DNA from: Octopus vulgaris
Lineage: Eukaryota
Direction: 5' to 3'
DNA: 64,000 nt
Assembly (NCBI GenBank): GCA_951406725.2
Contig: OX597822.1
Coordinates: forward strand, 101,680,001 to 101,744,000
Shown: positions 33,669-47,515 of the stretch, one piece after another
Layout of the letters: each line of letters starts with the position of its first letter
How positions within the stretch are numbered: the first letter of the stretch is position 1
Notes under the pieces: model-generated
Told to the model about the DNA's origin: nothing
Databases searched by the model: none
What the model saw: only the letters and a program-made list of their open reading frames with translations
Translations under genes and position numbers: made by a program

Positions 33669-34277
33669 TTTATATATATATATATTAATTAATAAGGGTG
33701 AGAGAATTAGATACTAATTTAATAGTATATTTATTCCACACCAAGTGGTATGAATGTATGTATAGTATATATATATATATATATATATATATAATGATAT
33801 AAATAAAATTTTTCGAAAAATTTTTTTTATATATATATATATATATATATCACAAAAATTCTTCAGCGGCACATATATATATATGAAGAAAATGCCAGAT
33901 ACGCGAAACAAAAATTGTCAATAGGTAAAACGAATTTTTTGAGATTTATGTTTTTCGAGACGCATAAATGTAGTTACAAATTTTGTTTCATCTGGATTAA
34001 ATTTTTTGTCTATCTGTAAATTATATATATATATATTGTGTGTGTGTGTGTGTTTGATAATAGAAAGAATGCTTTTCGCATTGGTGGGTAAATTTTATAT
34101 CTGAGTTCTACAGAAATTGGAGATTTTCTATGTACAAAATGTGAAATGTCAGTATTCATCCCATTTGATGAGAATGAGAAATCATATGTCCGTGGCACAC
34201 TTGAACAATTGTTAACTCTTCTGAAACCATTGGTTGCCTAATCATAAATATAGTATATATATACATATATGTATATT

Positions 34278-35773: not shown

Positions 35774-37378
35774 ATATGTATAATTACAGAAGTATGTACG
35801 CCCCTAAACATTTTCAGTAAAATCGCTGTTACTTTTATAATATCGAAGGAAACCAAACGAAATTTATGCTGAATAAAATATATCATACATGCAAACAATA
35901 TACAAATTTGGAACAGAAAATAAGAAACATTTTGAAAGATATGAACGAAATACATTAATTTTCAAACGATACAAAAATATGTACACCGTAAAGGATTATT
36001 TGATATATCCAATATTTGGTGTGACCGCCTTTGCTTTCAATGATTGCATTAAGTCTTCTGGGCATAACCGATGAAATAGACCTCCATTCTTCCTTAATTA
36101 TGTCTTTCAACTGTGTTACATTGCAGGTTTTTTTCTCCTCAATCATCCTTTTAAAAACATCCCACAGATATTCTTTATATTGGGTTTAAATCAGATGACA
36201 TTGTAAGCCAAGGCAATATCTTCACCTTTTTATCTGATCAAATCCTTAGTCGTCTTCTTTGAAGTATGTTTAGGATCATTATCATGTTGGAACATGGAAT
36301 GTCTTCCTAGTTCCTTGATGTTTTTCATCATCGTTTTCTGCAATACGTCACAATGTAGCTTCGAATCCATTCTTCTCTCAATAAATGTGACTCCTCCCAC
36401 ACCAGCCGCACTCATGCATCCCCAAAAGCATAGCACTTCTGCCACCGTGTTTCACGGTAGACACGGTACATTTGTCGCTGTTATCTTCACTTGGTAGTCG
36501 CCATACTCGTTTAATACCATCTGACCCAAACAAATTGATTTTAGTCTCGTCAAAAACAACAAAAAAAAAGAAGAATTTTATTCCAAAACTCTTTCCTCTT
36601 ACTCACATAGGTTTCGGCAAAAGAAAGACGACTTGATTTATGCCTTGCAGTTAGGAGAGGCTTCCTACGAGGAATGCATCCATGAAGACCACACTGGTAC
36701 AAACTTCCACGAACTGTTTGGGCGGATACGCTCTTTCCACTAATAGAAGACACTTCTTGGGCCAAAGATGAAGCGGTGCGACGCCTGTCGTCCATCACGC
36801 AACGTTGAATGTGACAAATATCACGCGCAGTTAAAATAGAAGGACGACCTGGACAATATTCGTTACTTAGCCGTCCAGTAGCTTTGTATTTCTGAATTAT
36901 TTTGGCAACTGTGTTTGTGCTAATATGTATTCTTTTGCTAATTAACTTGTATCCTAAACCATTCTTGTGCAAATTAAAAATAATTTTCTTCAAATCTTCA
37001 GACAATTGCTTTCCTTTTGGTGCCATTTTAATCACAAAACAGAATTCCTGAAGAGGGAATAATAATGACCGGTGAAAAACTGCCAGGAAAAAATAATTTA
37101 TTAGAATTGAAATTATCAGCGATTCGGTGAAATAAAAAAAAGTGGATAAGATATTGAATATAGCAAATTTTCATTAGTGTGTGCATTTTTTGTAACGTTT
37201 GAAAATTAATATTTCGTTCGTATCTTTGAAAATGTTTATTGTTTTGTGTTCTGAATTTGTAAAATATTTGAATGTATAATATATTTTATTCAGTAAAAAT
37301 TTCGTTTGATTTCCTTCGATATTATCAGAGTAATGACAATTTTACTAGAGTTTTTTGGAGTGTACATACTTGTGTGAG

Positions 37379-37385
<7 letters not shown>
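35774..37385 (-). mobile_element. Full-length defective Tc1-family transposon with long IR/DR-type inverted repeats
   Basis: The transposase is in pieces: MAPKGKQLSEDLK..HTH..GRP (36550-37035), FWGCMSAAGVG..FQHDNDPKHTS (36230-36445) and MPRRLNAIIESKGGHTKY. Imperfect IRs of about 200 bp lie at about 35780-35987 and 37177-37380, each with outer and inner AA(G/A)TATGTAC-like repeats. Confidence 0.93.
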
Positions 37386-37397
<12 letters not shown>

Positions 37398-37409
<12 letters not shown>

Positions 37410-37825
37410 TAAGAGAGTTAACGATAAGTGGCTAACTCTAGTGCTAGAAATAGCTCCTTATTCTGGTATAGCCACCGAAGATATTTTCCACAGCAGAAAC
37501 AGAAACAGAAGCTAAACCACAACTATGTATGTAATAGATCAGACCGCATGGGTATTTCATCGCCCGTGTGGGTCTGATAAATTGTATCGAGGACAAATAC
37601 TGCTGATGAATTATAGACAAATATGTGAGTATGATTACATATTATGTTGATAAGGAAACAATTGTTCAGTATTGATCTATCTTTTTGTTGTATTTCGCTT
37701 CCCCTACGTTGAGGGTAATGCTGTTTCTGCTGTGGAAAAAATCTTCGGTGGCTATACCAGAATAAGGAGCTATTTCTAGCACTAGAGTTAGCCACCTATC
37801 GTTAACTCTCTTATATTTATATATA
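37398..37825. repeat. Near-perfect inverted-repeat cassette (about 105 bp arms, about 215 bp spacer), PLE terminal-repeat-like
   Basis: About 37398-37503 and about 37721-37825 are reverse complements with only a couple of differences. The spacer holds a hairpin and a hammerhead. Confidence 0.9.
37596..37673 (+). ncRNA. Type-I hammerhead ribozyme, best-preserved copy
   Basis: Perfect 7-bp stem I AATACTG/CAGTATT, CTGATGA (37603-37609), long stem II (TTAT/ATAA, AATATGT/ACATATT), GAAAC (37655-37659), palindromic stem III ACAATTGT and a GUU cleavage triplet. Confidence 0.8.
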
Positions 37826-37918
37826 AATTTGCACTCCCTGGTTTCTATGTGCTAGGCCACTTGGTGTTAAACTGACGGTATTATTAAATTAATATCTAAT
37901 TTTTCACCCTCATTTATG

Positions 37919-38021
<103 letters not shown>

Positions 38022-38441: not shown

Positions 38442-38487
<46 letters not shown>

Positions 38488-38651
38488 TACGACAGGCTTC
38501 TTTCAGTTTCCGTCTACCAAATCCACTCACAAGGCATTGGTCGGCCCGAGGCTATAGCAGAAGACACTTGCCCAAGGTGCCACGCAGTGGGACTGAACCC
38601 GGAACCATGTGGCTGGTTAGCAAGCTACTTACCACACAGCAACTCCTGCGC

Positions 38652-38652
<1 letters not shown>
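38251..38652 (-). mobile_element. SINE family A with a small internal deletion
   Basis: Colinear with other copies but lacks the GAACCGCTAAG...GTAAAC segment. Confidence 0.9.
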
Positions 38653-38705
<53 letters not shown>

Positions 38706-39012: not shown

Positions 39013-39058
<46 letters not shown>

Positions 39059-39332
39059 TTGAAGCGTGGAAGGTGTTTGTAAGCTATTTAAGAAACACAC
39101 AAAAGCCGTTCGATTCACTTCAACATTTAAGTCTAATTTGTCAAAATATTTTCGTTGGTAAAATCCGTGACCTGTTCACTGACAAAAATCTTTTGACAAA
39201 TTAAACTGTTGAAGTGAATCGAACGGCTTTTGTGTGTTTCTTAAATAGCTTACAAACATCTTCCACGCTGCAATTGTTTTCGTTTCAGCACACGATCTCA
39301 GATCAAATCACTTGCTATGCAAGTACATCTCC

Positions 39333-39582: not shown

Positions 39583-39669
<87 letters not shown>

Positions 39670-39671
<2 letters not shown>

Positions 39672-40062
39672 CGCAGGAGTGGCTGTGTGGTAAGTAGCTT
39701 GTTTACCAACCTCATGGTTCCGGGTTCAGTCCCACTGCGTGGCACCTTGGGCAAGTGTTTTCTACTATAGCCTTGGGCCGACCAAAGCCTTGTGAGCGGA
39801 TTTAGTAGACGGAAACTGAAAGAAGCCCGTCGTATATATATATATGTGTGCGTCTATGTTTGTGTTTGTCCCCCTACTAGCATTGCTTGACAACCGATGC
39901 TGGTGTGTTTATGTCCCCGTCACTTAGCGGTTCGGCAAAAGAGACCAATAGAATAAGTACTGGGCTTACAAAGAATAAGTCCCGGGGTCGAGCTGCTCGA
40001 TTAAAGGCGGTGCTCCAGCATGGCCGCAGTCAAATGACTGAAACAAGTAAAAGAGAAAAAGA
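39670..40062 (+). mobile_element. Full-length SINE family A
   Basis: Complete from head to tail and flanked by a direct duplication of about 57 bp. Confidence 0.92.
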
Positions 40063-41152: not shown

Positions 41153-43760
41153 GGCGGTGAGCTGGTAGAAACGTTAGCACGCCGGGCGAAGTGCTTAGCG
41201 ATATTTCGTCTGCCGTTACGTTCTGAGTTCAAATTCCGCCGAGGTCGACTTTGCCTTTCATCGTTTCGGGATCGATAAATTAAGTACCAGTTACGCACTG
41301 GGGTCGATGTAATCGACTTAATCCGTTTTTCTGTCCTTGTTTGTCCCTTCTGTGTTTAGCCCATTGTGGGTAGTAAAGAAATAGGTATTACGTCTGCCGC
41401 TACGTTCTGAGTTCAAATTCCGCCGAAGTCGACTTTGCCGTTCATCCTTCAGGGTCGATAAATTAAGTACCAGTTGCGTACTGTCGTCGATCTAATCGAC
41501 TGGTCCCCTCCCCCAAAATAGTGTAGAAAAGAATTTTTAAAAATTGTAGTTGAGTATTCGGGTCAATACAATCAACTTACACCCTCCTCGAAATTGTTAG
41601 TCTCGAGGTAAAATTTGAAATCAATATATATGGAACAATAAATGATGGTCTCAAATTTTGGCACAAGGTCAGCAATTACGTGGAGGAGGCAAACCGATTA
41701 CATCGATCGCAGGGATAAACTGGGTCTTATTTTACCAACCATTTGAATTCAGAACGTAAAGTCACAAGAATTACCACTAACCACTTTTTCCAGCGCGGTA
41801 ACGATTCTGGTGGCACGCCGCCCTTGGGACAATAAGTATTGCTTTTCAATTTTGGCACAAGACGAGAAATTTCGAAGAAGGGGTTAAAAGTTGATTACAT
41901 CGATCAACAGTACTCCGCTCGAACTTGCGTATTTTATCATCCCCGAAAATATGAAAAGCAAACTCGTCCGGCGGAAATTCAACTCAGAACGTAATGACAA
42001 ACGAAAAGGCGCTAAACGTTTTGTCCGGCACGCTAACAATTCCACCTGCTCCCTGCCTTCATACAGTTATTTCAAATTTTGGAACAAGGCCAGAAATTTG
42101 GGGGCAGGGGATAAGTCGATTACATCGACCCCACTACTCACCTCGTACTTATTTGATCAACCCCGAAAGGATGAAAGACAAAGTCGGCCTCGGCGGCATT
42201 TCAACTCAGGACATAAAGACGGACAAGAAGCTGCAAAGCATTTTGCCCGGGGCGCTAACGATTCGTATTTCTTTATTGCCTACAAGGGGCTAAACAAAGA
42301 GGGGACAAACAAGGACAGACAAACAGATTAAGTCGATTACATCGATCCCAGTGCGTAGCTGTTACTTAATTTATCGACCCCGAAATGATGAAAGGCCAGG
42401 TCGACCAAGGTGGAATTTGAACTCAGAACGTAACGGCAGACGAAATACCGCTAAGCACTTTGCCCGGCGTGCTAATGTTTCTGCCAGTTCGCCTTCATGC
42501 AATCATAAATATTATCACCTAGAAAAAATAGTGGGGTCAATGAATAATACTCACGTGGGGAAAAAAAAACTTTGTGGATATCTACAGAATACGAACACTG
42601 ACAAATTATACAAACCTCTACTACCGCCACCACCACCGGCATCAACTCCACAAACACACAAATTTCACCATACCAGTAATTCACAGCACCACCAATAACG
42701 ATAAGAACAATAAGAAACCAACTATGATACCTTGCACTTGGTCTGTCAACCTTCAAGAAATAGCAGCCTACACTCCCTCATATCACACCTCGTGCTTTCA
42801 GAAGATTTATTGGCTAATGTGGTCCTGCGTGACATGCACACAGCAGATGGATGGAATGTTTACGGAATTGGAAACGCTGGTCGCTTGACTTGCTAGAAAT
42901 AGCAGCGAAATCTATTCTAAATCACTCCTTACAATCTTTAAAAAAAATAGAGAAATGAACATTTTTTGCTAGAAAGCATAGCTGAGTGGCAGGATGACTA
43001 TAACTGGAATACCTTTGATTGTTTGACTATTAAACATTAAAACAACAAAAAGGCAACTGTACGGCTCCTGTGTGGTAGAAATAGCAGCCAGGTATCTATC
43101 AAATTATTTTCCTGCTGTCTAGATTAAAGAATGGTCGTGCTGGATATTGTAATTAGCGTCGTGAAAACTGGAGACATTTATTTTTAAATAAATACAAACG
43201 ATCACGGGGTTATGAATGATAATGACAGCAACAAAAATAATTACAATAACTTCCGCTTTCTTTTCATCTTTTAGTCAGAACGGAAGACAGGCTGTGCCTG
43301 TGACCCCATTAAAAGGCTTCCAAGACAGCTGGGAGGAAATAGAGAAGGTATCCTCAAACCAGAAATCTGGCCCAAATTTTTGCAACAGAGTGGATTACAT
43401 TAAAAGCACGCAGGATGCCGAATGGTGATGTTAAACCGTGTGGTGGTTTAAATCAACCACCTGTGTAAGTCATGGAGAAATGTTTTTATCAGTCCCGAAA
43501 GGATGATAAGCAAATTTGGGCTCACAGTGATTTGAACTGAGACTGCAAAGACTTGAAACAAAATACCACGATGCATTCAATCCGAATTACTCAGTGGCCT
43601 GTCGATCAGTCTCCCGGGGACAGTACTTCTTTTATCGACCCCTGAAAGAATAAATGGAAGACTTAACTCCAGTGTCATTTGAACTAAGAGGGCAGAAATT
43701 GAAGGAAAATATCACAAAGCCGTCTATTCGTCACTCAAACGACTTTGCAAAGTCACCACG
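41153..43760. mobile_element. Cluster of about 8 family C SINE copies in both orientations
   Basis: A plus-strand dimer at 41153-41533, plus minus-strand copies of varying decay at about 41650-41825, 41850-42060, 42070-42495 (dimer), 43365-43600 and 43610-43760. All share GCCTTTCATCC..GGTCGATAAA..AAGTACCAG. Confidence 0.8.
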
Positions 43761-46532: not shown

Positions 46533-47515
46533 GGCGGGGAGCTGGCACAAACGTTAGCACGCCGGGCGAAATGCGTAGCAGTATTTCGTCTGTCGTTACG
46601 CTCTGAGTTCAAATTCCGCCGAGGTCGGCTTTGCCTTTCATCCTTTCACGGTCGATAAATTAAGTACCAGTTACGCACTGGGGTCGATATAATCGATTTA
46701 ATCCGTTTTTCTGTCCTTGTTTGTAATCTCTGTGTTTAGCCCCTTGTGGGTAGTAAAGAAATATGTATTTCGTCGGCCGTTACGTTCTGAGTTCAAATTC
46801 CGCCGAGGTCGACTTTGCCTTTAATCTTTTCGGGGATCAATAAATTAAGTACCAGTTACGCGGTGGGGTCGATATAATCGACTTAATCCGTTTTTCTGTC
46901 CTTGTTTGTCATCCCTGTGTTTAGCCCCTTGTGGGTAGTAAAGAAATATGTATTTCGTCGGCCGTTACGTTCTGAGTTCAAATTCCGCCGAGGTCGGCTT
47001 TGCCTTTCATCCTTTCACGGTCGATAAATTAAGTACCAGTTACGCACTGGGGTCGATATAATCGACTTAATCCGTTTTTCTGTCCTTGTTTGTCATCTCT
47101 GTGTTTAGCCCCTTGTGGGTAGTAAAGAAATATGTATTTCGTTGGCCGTTACGTTCTGAGTTCAAATTCCGCCGAGGTCGACTTTGCCTTTAATCTTTCG
47201 GGGATCGATAAATTAAGTACCAGTTACGCACTGGTGTAGATGTTGTCGACTTAATCCCTTGTTTGTCCTTGTTTATCCCCTCTATGTTTAGCCCCTTGTG
47301 GGCAATAAAGCAATAAGAAACATTAGTACGCCGTACTAAATAATTAGCAGTATTTCGTCAGTCTTTACGTACTAAGATCAAATTCCACCGATGTGGACTT
47401 TGCCTTTCATGCTTTGAGGATCGATAAAATAAGTACCAGTGGTGTAATGGGAGAGGTAGATGTAATCAATTTACCCCTCTCCCAAAATTTGTACTTGCGA
47501 CAAAATTTTGAACTA
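46533..47515 (+). repeat. Tandem array of family C SINE units (head plus 5 units)
   Basis: Units start GTATTTCGT at 46581, 46765, 46950, 47134 and 47350 (184, 185, 184 and 216 bp spacing). Confidence 0.93.

What the first reader, a model, noticed from the sequence alone, without database searches (positions are those of the whole stretch)
37398..37825. Young foldback cassette: 105-bp inverted arms enclosing a hairpin and a well-preserved hammerhead
Seen: near-identical inverted arms and a hairpin ATCAGACC..GGTCTGAT at about 37538-37578. The hammerhead at 37596-37673 has a perfect 7-bp stem I, an unusually long stem II, an ACAATTGT palindrome and a GUU site. One A-G mismatch lies at the base of stem II. 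The cassette sits in (AT)n directly after the Tc1 end and has no coding capacity. Inference: a recent non-autonomous ribozyme-bearing retroelement or inverted PLE terminus that would give a long dsRNA stem with a self-cleaving loop.
Basis: partly seen in the sequence, partly recalled or inferred. Interest (0 to 1): 0.75.

Follow-up and report, generated by a model that had tools for sequence, protein, structure and literature searches.

The report
Penelope-copied hammerhead retrozyme, inverted insertion
This is one cut-short, back-to-back copy of a known kind of small non-coding jumping repeat that carries a predicted self-cutting RNA motif, and its ends match those of an intact Penelope-type jumping gene in the same genome, which likely supplies the copying enzyme.

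Summary
The arms, hairpin and hammerhead motif are real, but this is not a purpose-built foldback cassette. The two arms end at two fixed points ~110 nt apart: 35 of 36 classifiable two-armed insertions have one of each. [quoted passage not shown] The hammerhead is under selection (stem I covaries, core 99% conserved, cleavage base never G in 98 copies) but looks weakened: the A.G mismatch is fixed in this subfamily, U4 toggles to C, and 0 of 122 5' ends lie at the cut site. Cleavage and RNA circles are untested. Verdict: new member of a known kind (animal non-LTR retrozyme / non-autonomous PLE). The scan noted apparently the same family and end rule before on other DNA of this genome.

The parts
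37379..37406 (.). Left (TA)n target tract
37408..37502 (-). Inverted arm: 5'-truncated copy, monomer positions 391-485, 3' end at the short end (e1) against (TA)n
37503..37507 (.). Head-to-head junction: 5 extra bases that repeat the neighbouring 6-mer (inferred slippage during joining)
37508..37918 (+). Direct arm: monomer positions 177-485, then 1-98 of the next monomer, 3' end at the long end (e2)
37538..37578 (+). Hairpin; one branch of the predicted folded monomer
   Evidence: z -5.2
37596..37673 (+). Type I hammerhead motif: 7-bp stem I, canonical core 37603-37609, ~17-bp stem II with A.G at 10.1-11.1, palindromic stem III 37658-37665, predicted cut 3' of 37666
37816..37918 (+). PLE-type tail: the ~100-110 nt between e1 and e2, present on only one of the two arms
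37920..38002 (.). Right (TA)41 target tract
35790..37378 (-). Neighbour, not part of the element: decayed Tc1 transposon (85% TIRs, broken transposase); outer limits approximate

Best explanation
This is a 5'-truncated, head-to-head insertion of a ~490-bp non-coding tandem repeat with a hammerhead motif, likely copied into a TA microsatellite by the reverse transcriptase/endonuclease of a Hydra-clade Penelope-like element, with a ribozyme that is predicted to work only weakly and as a dimer. Steps: (1) the family exists as tandem monomers with one hammerhead each (shown); (2) multimeric or circular RNA is made (inferred from known retrozymes); (3) the PLE protein nicks both strands of (TA)n and primes cDNA from both DNA ends, one at e1 and one at e2, ~110 nt apart (end pattern shown; enzyme step inferred from the in vitro work in PMC11167929); (4) both cDNAs stop early and are joined 5'-to-5', giving the inverted arms (junction pattern shown, joining inferred); (5) the Hydra-clade PLE is the enzyme source (inferred from the same end rule, the same target and one chimera); (6) the hammerhead is kept by selection but is not what sets insertion ends (shown for 5' ends; cleavage itself untested).
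For: Family: 739 candidates, 40 scored, 84-100% identical; 850 exact hits of a tail 16-mer against 1 control; 372 hits of the hammerhead 3' half against 17 controls. Tandem arrays reach 5.6 monomers at 99.6-100% identity. In 81 insertions holding the first 100 tail hits: 39 head-to-head, 0 tail-to-tail; 35 of the 36 with both ends classifiable are e1+e2 (binomial p 9e-6 against independent ends given the tail selection). A tail on one of two inverted repeats is the published PLE signature (PMC3846280; PMC8557442) and marks two internal RT start sites (PMC11167929). An autonomous PLE with many intact 726-727-residue frames has the Hydra-clade RWK, DKT, CxxC and CxH motifs, ends in (TA)n, carries its own hammerhead and shows e1+e2 in 20 of 20 complete two-armed insertions among 38 loci (counted by eye). 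Locus L308/L388: one arm is PLE ending at PLE e1; the other is PLE endonuclease sequence fused without (TA)n to a 52-nt retrozyme tail ending at e2; no PLE remainder in ~15 kb downstream. Hammerhead selection: 5 of 7 stem I pairs change on both sides, covariation 0.292 against 0.176 shuffled and at most 0.13 for slid controls; core 98.9% against 83.9% elsewhere, permutation p 0.0005, H17 never G in 98 distinct copies.
Against: Only one PLE-retrozyme chimera among 324 loci screened (overlapping fetches included). Its tail is 98% like an older subfamily and 92% like this copy, and insertion plus deletion could also explain it. PLE tail and retrozyme tail are not significantly alike by alignment (p 0.3-0.6), and the units share no convincing homology, so descent from this PLE is not shown. 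Other TA-ending PLE families (Neptune-like, older Hydra-like) exist and could be the mobiliser. Exceptions to the end rule: L260 (e1+e1), L254 (e2+e2 but interrupted), and L028/L031, a join of two subfamilies with e2+e2. The 81 include two probable duplicate pairs (L049/L053, L197/L263). Covariation controls do not remove relatedness, and the alignment was picked by core pattern. In one search, 49% of non-core positions are as conserved as the weakest core position. No evidence of transcription, cleavage or circles.
Confidence: 0.8

Rival explanations
1. The pieces are truncated terminal repeats (pLTRs) of an autonomous PLE that I did not find, not an independent non-coding element.
For: Truncated PLEs give dual hammerheads on opposite strands 100-700 bp apart (PMC4209133). 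Only three PLE groups were examined.
Against: Monomers follow each other head to tail up to 5.6 times with no frame between them. No PLE frame runs into the monomer in the family loci screened with two PLE proteins or with the Hydra PLE unit, except the chimera.
Confidence: 0.1
2. One reading: a foldback cassette whose long double-stranded stem and self-cleaving loop are the functional RNA.
For: A read-through transcript is predicted to fold into a ~105-bp stem (z -25.5) that leaves stems I and II formed (pairing 0.66-0.93).
Against: Arm length and junction differ at every locus; 42 of 81 insertions have no inverted arm. The element runs past the right arm. One dimer-type hammerhead, stem III probability 0.03.
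Confidence: 0.05
3. An ordinary MITE or an extension of the Tc1 end.
For: Inverted ends, TA flanks, next to a Tc1 remnant.
Against: Variable 5' truncation, fixed 3' ends, tandem monomers and unequal arms. No Tc1 sequence shows in the printed flanks of other copies. Structural selection acts on an RNA motif.
Confidence: 0.02
4. Same element and route, but the hammerhead of this subfamily is catalytically dead and is kept only as a folded protein-binding or dimerising module. This varies step 6 and can hold together with the best explanation.
For: 10.1-11.1 is unpaired in 24 of 40 aligned copies. U4C occurs in 27 of 98 copies and changes state at least 6 times on the tree. 0 of 122 5' ends lie within 3 nt of the cut, 1.7 expected. 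Hammerhead mutants do not affect insertion by an anole PLE in vitro (PMC11167929).
Against: H17 is U, C or A and never G; C3, A6, G8, A9, G12-A14 are 98-100% conserved and G5 96% while N7 varies. U4C keeps enough activity for viroid infectivity (PMC3088659).
Confidence: 0.2

Closest known systems
Animal non-LTR retrozymes (Cervera and de la Pena 2020, PMC7229834, passages read; Li, Clavereau and Pollet 2026, bioRxiv 10.64898/2026.07.22.740005, parts 1-2 of 5 read, supplements closed)
   Same: Non-coding, low-GC tandem monomers with one type I hammerhead each, dispersed as monomers to multimers; predicted highly paired monomer (z -4.2 to -5.2, 30 shuffles); PLE mobilisation proposed.
   Different: Monomer 490-503 bp against ~230-390 bp in coral, mussel and axolotl; ~17-bp stem II; 10.1-11.1 pair free and U4C common; regular two-armed insertions with a PLE tail; circles not shown here.
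Inverted 5'-truncated PLE insertions with a tail (PMC3846280, passages; PMC8557442, passages; PMC11167929, parts 1-2 of 4)
   Same: Head-to-head arms, tail on one arm, AT-rich target, two internal start sites.
   Different: No coding frame; tail ~110 nt against 30-40 nt; the one-short-one-long rule is near-strict (35 of 36), where the papers say 'often' or 'optionally'.
Hydra-clade PLEs, e.g. Hydra-1_Obim (PMC8557442 section 11 and supplement rows)
   Same: The candidate helper has RWK, DKT, CxxC and CxH, a single frame, a hammerhead and (TA)n insertion.
   Different: It is the helper, not the finding. Its unit is 3,431 bp against 2,507 bp listed; its linker is only CxCX5C-like; sequence identity to Hydra-1_Obim was not tested.
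Dimer-type PLE hammerheads with palindromic stem III (PMC4209133, parts 1-2 of 4)
   Same: Type I topology, enlarged stem II, palindromic stem III, predicted dimer dependence.
   Different: Lacks the conserved G10.1-C11.1 pair (kept in sister subfamily B) and the extra unpaired base after A9; stem II is about twice as long.

Membership tests
Non-LTR retrozyme | Tandem non-coding monomers with a type I hammerhead in every unit | tested here: met
   Family arrays with 2-6 hammerheads; this locus itself holds one, so it is a truncated derivative
Non-LTR retrozyme | No protein-coding capacity | tested here: met
Non-LTR retrozyme | Dispersed, recently mobile copies | tested here: met
Non-LTR retrozyme | Self-cleavage of the transcript | not testable with these tools
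   Indirect only: core conservation and NUH rule; no 5' ends at the cut
Non-LTR retrozyme | Accumulation as circular RNA | not testable with these tools
   Only assembled contigs were available; they cannot tell a circle from a tandem array
Hammerhead ribozyme, type I | Core C3-A9, G12-A14, A15.1-U16.1, H17 not G | tested here: met
Hammerhead ribozyme, type I | Stems I and II supported by covariation | tested here: met
   5 of 7 stem I pairs and 5 of 18 stem II pairs change on both sides; relatedness not removed
Hammerhead ribozyme, type I | Paired (G-C) 10.1-11.1 | tested here: not met
   A.G here and in its clade; G-C only in subfamily B
Hammerhead ribozyme, type I | Stable stem III in the monomer | tested here: not met
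   Probability 0.03; the palindrome pairs between two copies at -6.4 kcal/mol, as in dimer-type hammerheads
Hammerhead ribozyme, type I | Match to an Rfam hammerhead model | tested here: not met
   none up to E 10 in 37450-37780
PLE-mobilised insertion | 5' truncation, head-to-head inversion, tail on one arm | tested here: met
PLE-mobilised insertion | (TA)n target without a discernible TSD | tested here: met
PLE-mobilised insertion | Sequence kinship to the terminal repeat of an autonomous PLE | tested here: not met
   No significant similarity to the Hydra-clade PLE, the Neptune-like families or the older Hydra-like family
PLE-mobilised insertion | Direct link to a specific helper | tested here: inconclusive
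   One chimera, L308/L388
MITE | Constant length, terminal inverted repeats at both ends | tested here: not met

The most novel reading that the evidence does not exclude
An active Hydra-clade PLE works as a two-handed machine that primes both ends of a cut TA tract at once, one hand always at the short start site and the other at the long one, and can hold two different RNAs (its own and a retrozyme's) in one event. The retrozyme lineage repeatedly detunes its hammerhead (U4C, open 10.1-11.1 pair) so that circles or long precursors survive to be copied, and the weakest-core subfamily therefore lays down the longest arrays (3 of 17 against 0 of 64 with two or more monomers). This would be a reconstitutable helper-parasite pair for the open question of how animal retrozymes move.
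Probability: 0.3. Interest if true: 0.65.

Novelty: new member of a known kind. Interest (0 to 1): 0.42.

Why it matters
PLE mobilisation of animal retrozymes has been proposed from co-occurrence and repeat phylogeny (PMC7229834; bioRxiv 10.64898/2026.07.22.740005, parts read). Here a young retrozyme family and an intact candidate helper share target, end rule and one chimeric insertion, which names the protein and the RNA to put in one tube. The near-strict short-end/long-end rule constrains how PLE inversions form. The subfamilies also give a natural series of hammerhead cores (G-C, U-A, U.U, C.A, A.A, A.G; U4 or C4) to test how much cleavage such an element needs. I found no description of such a family in a cephalopod in four full-text searches or in passages of a 2026 octopus repeat annotation (PMC13282606: no 'hammerhead', 'ribozyme' or 'retrozyme'). 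The library lacks most subscription journals and bioRxiv supplements were closed. The locus itself is an ordinary truncated copy.

Tried and rejected
Rfam: no hammerhead match at the locus; the whole-window scan showed only below-threshold matches, mostly to microsatellites, in the 150 of 237 rows listed.

RNA: no RNA holder listed (16 holder rows are guessed RNA, all contigs). Laying X1, X6, X7, X18 (4 of 24) gave scattered family contigs, some across the predicted cut; this says nothing on expression, cleavage or editing.

Helper search: Neptune-like PLEs and an older Hydra-like family have unrelated 3' ends and broken frames in the copies seen. An HHR-like element beside the L062 frame proved to be a separate insertion. 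An apparent motif likeness between PLE tail and retrozyme tail failed a shuffle test (p 0.3-0.6). Pfam gave no hit on the 727-residue frame; its homologues carry no informative names.

5' ends at the cut site: none (0 of 122). A cluster of 5' ends in the hairpin seen among best-scoring copies was not pursued, because that set is biased by my query. Array length against core state: overall lengths do not differ (Mann-Whitney p 0.68); only the two-or-more class does (Fisher p 0.008, post hoc). G3-C8 hits inside Neptune frames are judged false positives of my scan. Look-up of earlier findings by sequence returned nothing.

Full report
Observation. The arms (37395-37502, 37721-37828; 108 nt, 97%) are real, as are the hairpin (z -5.2) and the hammerhead motif at 37596-37673 with the predicted cut 3' of 37666. 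The right boundary is wrong: family sequence continues to 37918 before (TA)41 begins. The motif alone folds only modestly better than shuffles (z -2.1) and Rfam does not recognise it. The window is G000:C9:101680001-101744000 in a 2.8-Gb genome; its repeats look octopus-like to me (recalled, not tested).

What the element is. A search of the genome gave 739 candidates, 40 scored, at 84-100% identity. Mapping 30 loci showed a tandem monomer of about 490-494 bp. The window holds an inverted piece (monomer 391-485) joined head to head to a direct piece (177-485, then 1-98 of the next unit). Related subfamilies B (503 bp; 1,917 candidates) and C (493 bp) share the layout. A tail 16-mer has 850 exact hits and the hammerhead 3' half 372; both are lower bounds. 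Arrays reach 5.6 monomers at 99.6-100% identity. Each arm of the window copy carries one substitution against the other, so the insertion is young but not new. The Tc1 remnant next door is an older, unrelated neighbour.

Insertion anatomy. 3' ends fall at two fixed points, e1 and e2, about 110 nt apart, against (TA)n; 5' ends vary. I took all 81 insertions that hold the first 100 tail hits: 39 are head-to-head, none tail-to-tail, 42 single. Of the 39, three have an interrupted end; 35 of the other 36 are e1+e2 (p 9e-6). The sample is biased towards e2, which that test allows for, and it includes two probable duplicate pairs. Exceptions are L254, L260 and L028/L031. A tail on one of two inverted repeats is the known PLE signature (PMC3846280 passages; PMC8557442 passages), and in vitro it corresponds to two internal RT start sites used by a protein that cuts and extends both strands of AT-rich DNA (PMC11167929 parts 1-2 of 4). 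The foldback is therefore an insertion by-product.

The hammerhead. In 40 copies picked by core pattern, 5 of 7 stem I pairs change on both sides and the covariation score is 0.292 against 0.176 for shuffles and at most 0.13 for slid partners (relatedness not removed). In 98 distinct copies collected without a core filter (though partly ranked by overall similarity), ten core positions are 98.9% conserved against 83.9% for 107 others (p 0.0005), the palindrome 99.5%, and H17 is U 55, C 34, A 9, G 0. Against full activity: 10.1-11.1 is G-C only in B and is A.G, A.A, C.A, U-A or U.U elsewhere; U4 is C in 27 of 98. A tree of 106 copies (20 of 126 left out for lacking a parsable core; state columns masked) puts the window copy in a derived A.G clade inside a U4C grade, with at least 6 changes at U4; the C4 state sits in a CpG, so mutation bias may contribute (inference). 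Stem III is not predicted to form within one molecule (0.03), but the palindrome pairs between two, as in dimer-type PLE hammerheads with low in vitro activity (PMC4209133 parts 1-2 of 4). No 5' end lies within 3 nt of the cut (0 of 122, 1.7 expected). This fits a report that cleavage is not needed for insertion. U4C lowers but does not abolish activity in a viroid (PMC3088659 passage).

The likely helper. Neptune-like and older Hydra-like PLEs had unrelated ends. A search on the e2 motif returned L308, where PLE endonuclease sequence abuts a retrozyme tail. That fragment led to a young PLE with many intact 726-727-residue frames and a 3,431-bp unit. It has the RWK, DKT, CxxC and CxH motifs of the Hydra clade (PMC8557442 section 11), for which an octopus member with (TA)n preference is listed (supplement rows). 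Its insertions have their own e1 and e2, 70 nt apart, with one of each in 20 of 20 complete two-armed insertions among 38 loci (counted by eye). At L308/L388 the left arm is this PLE ending at its e1; the right arm is PLE sequence fused without (TA)n to 52 nt of retrozyme tail ending at e2; no PLE remainder follows within ~15 kb. The simplest reading is one event with a template switch. It is a single case among 324 loci screened, its tail belongs to an older subfamily (98% against 92% for this copy), and the two tails are not significantly alike. The helper assignment is likely, not shown; I put it near 0.6, and the class assignment near 0.9.

Comparison and novelty. It works like an animal non-LTR retrozyme (PMC7229834 passages; bioRxiv 10.64898/2026.07.22.740005 parts 1-2 of 5) and meets the genomic criteria; cleavage and circles are untested (searches give no evidence either way). 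It is a new member of a known kind. Earlier AI notes of this scan describe what appears to be the same 490-493-bp family and the same end rule at other loci; I reached that reading before opening them, and they are not independent support.

Noticed in passing
window 39053-39327: A second head-to-head insertion in (TA)n, from another family, with a hammerhead whose C3-G8 pair is swapped to G3-C8 (minus strand, about 39141-39185; stem II decayed here). A 20-mer over that core has 5,777 exact hits, 0 controls. It also shows one short and one long arm.
   Followed up: partly
window 33671-33748: Isolated tail fragment of a related family on the minus strand, 77% identical, against (TA)n.
   Followed up: no
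window 35790-37378: Decayed Tc1 transposon: 137-bp inverted repeats at 85%, transposase N-terminal domains PF01498 and PF25787, frame broken.
   Followed up: partly
window 46581-47315 and 41202-41501: Tandem copies of a 184-bp SINE-like unit, 4 copies at 91% and 2 more.
   Followed up: no
window 38477-38698 and 39624-39845: Two copies of a common SINE-like repeat in opposite orientation, 222 nt at 94%, 925 nt apart.
   Followed up: no
L371-L387, e.g. G000:C4:134761200-134769500 and G000:C12:43652500-43661500: Young autonomous Hydra-clade PLE with intact frames, full tandem and inverted copies; its hammerhead also has an A.A mismatch at 10.1-11.1.
   Followed up: yes
L251 3295-6141 (G000:C1 near 60459000): Subfamily C array of 5.6 monomers at 99.6-100% identity with a U4C core in every unit.
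   Followed up: partly
L028 1387-2400: Subfamily A and subfamily B copies joined head to head without (TA)n, both ending at e2; possibly two different RNAs in one event. Both share the same stem III palindrome.
   Followed up: partly
L018, L045, L046, L064, L066, L091, L114, L239: Further hammerhead families with long stem II and other 8-10-nt palindromes, at least eight kinds.
   Followed up: no
L026, L173, L200, L213: Retrozyme and Hydra-clade PLE ends share one (TA)n tract as neighbours.
   Followed up: partly
L071 3' untranslated region: A Neptune-like PLE with a possible A3-U8 hammerhead core, seen by eye.
   Followed up: no
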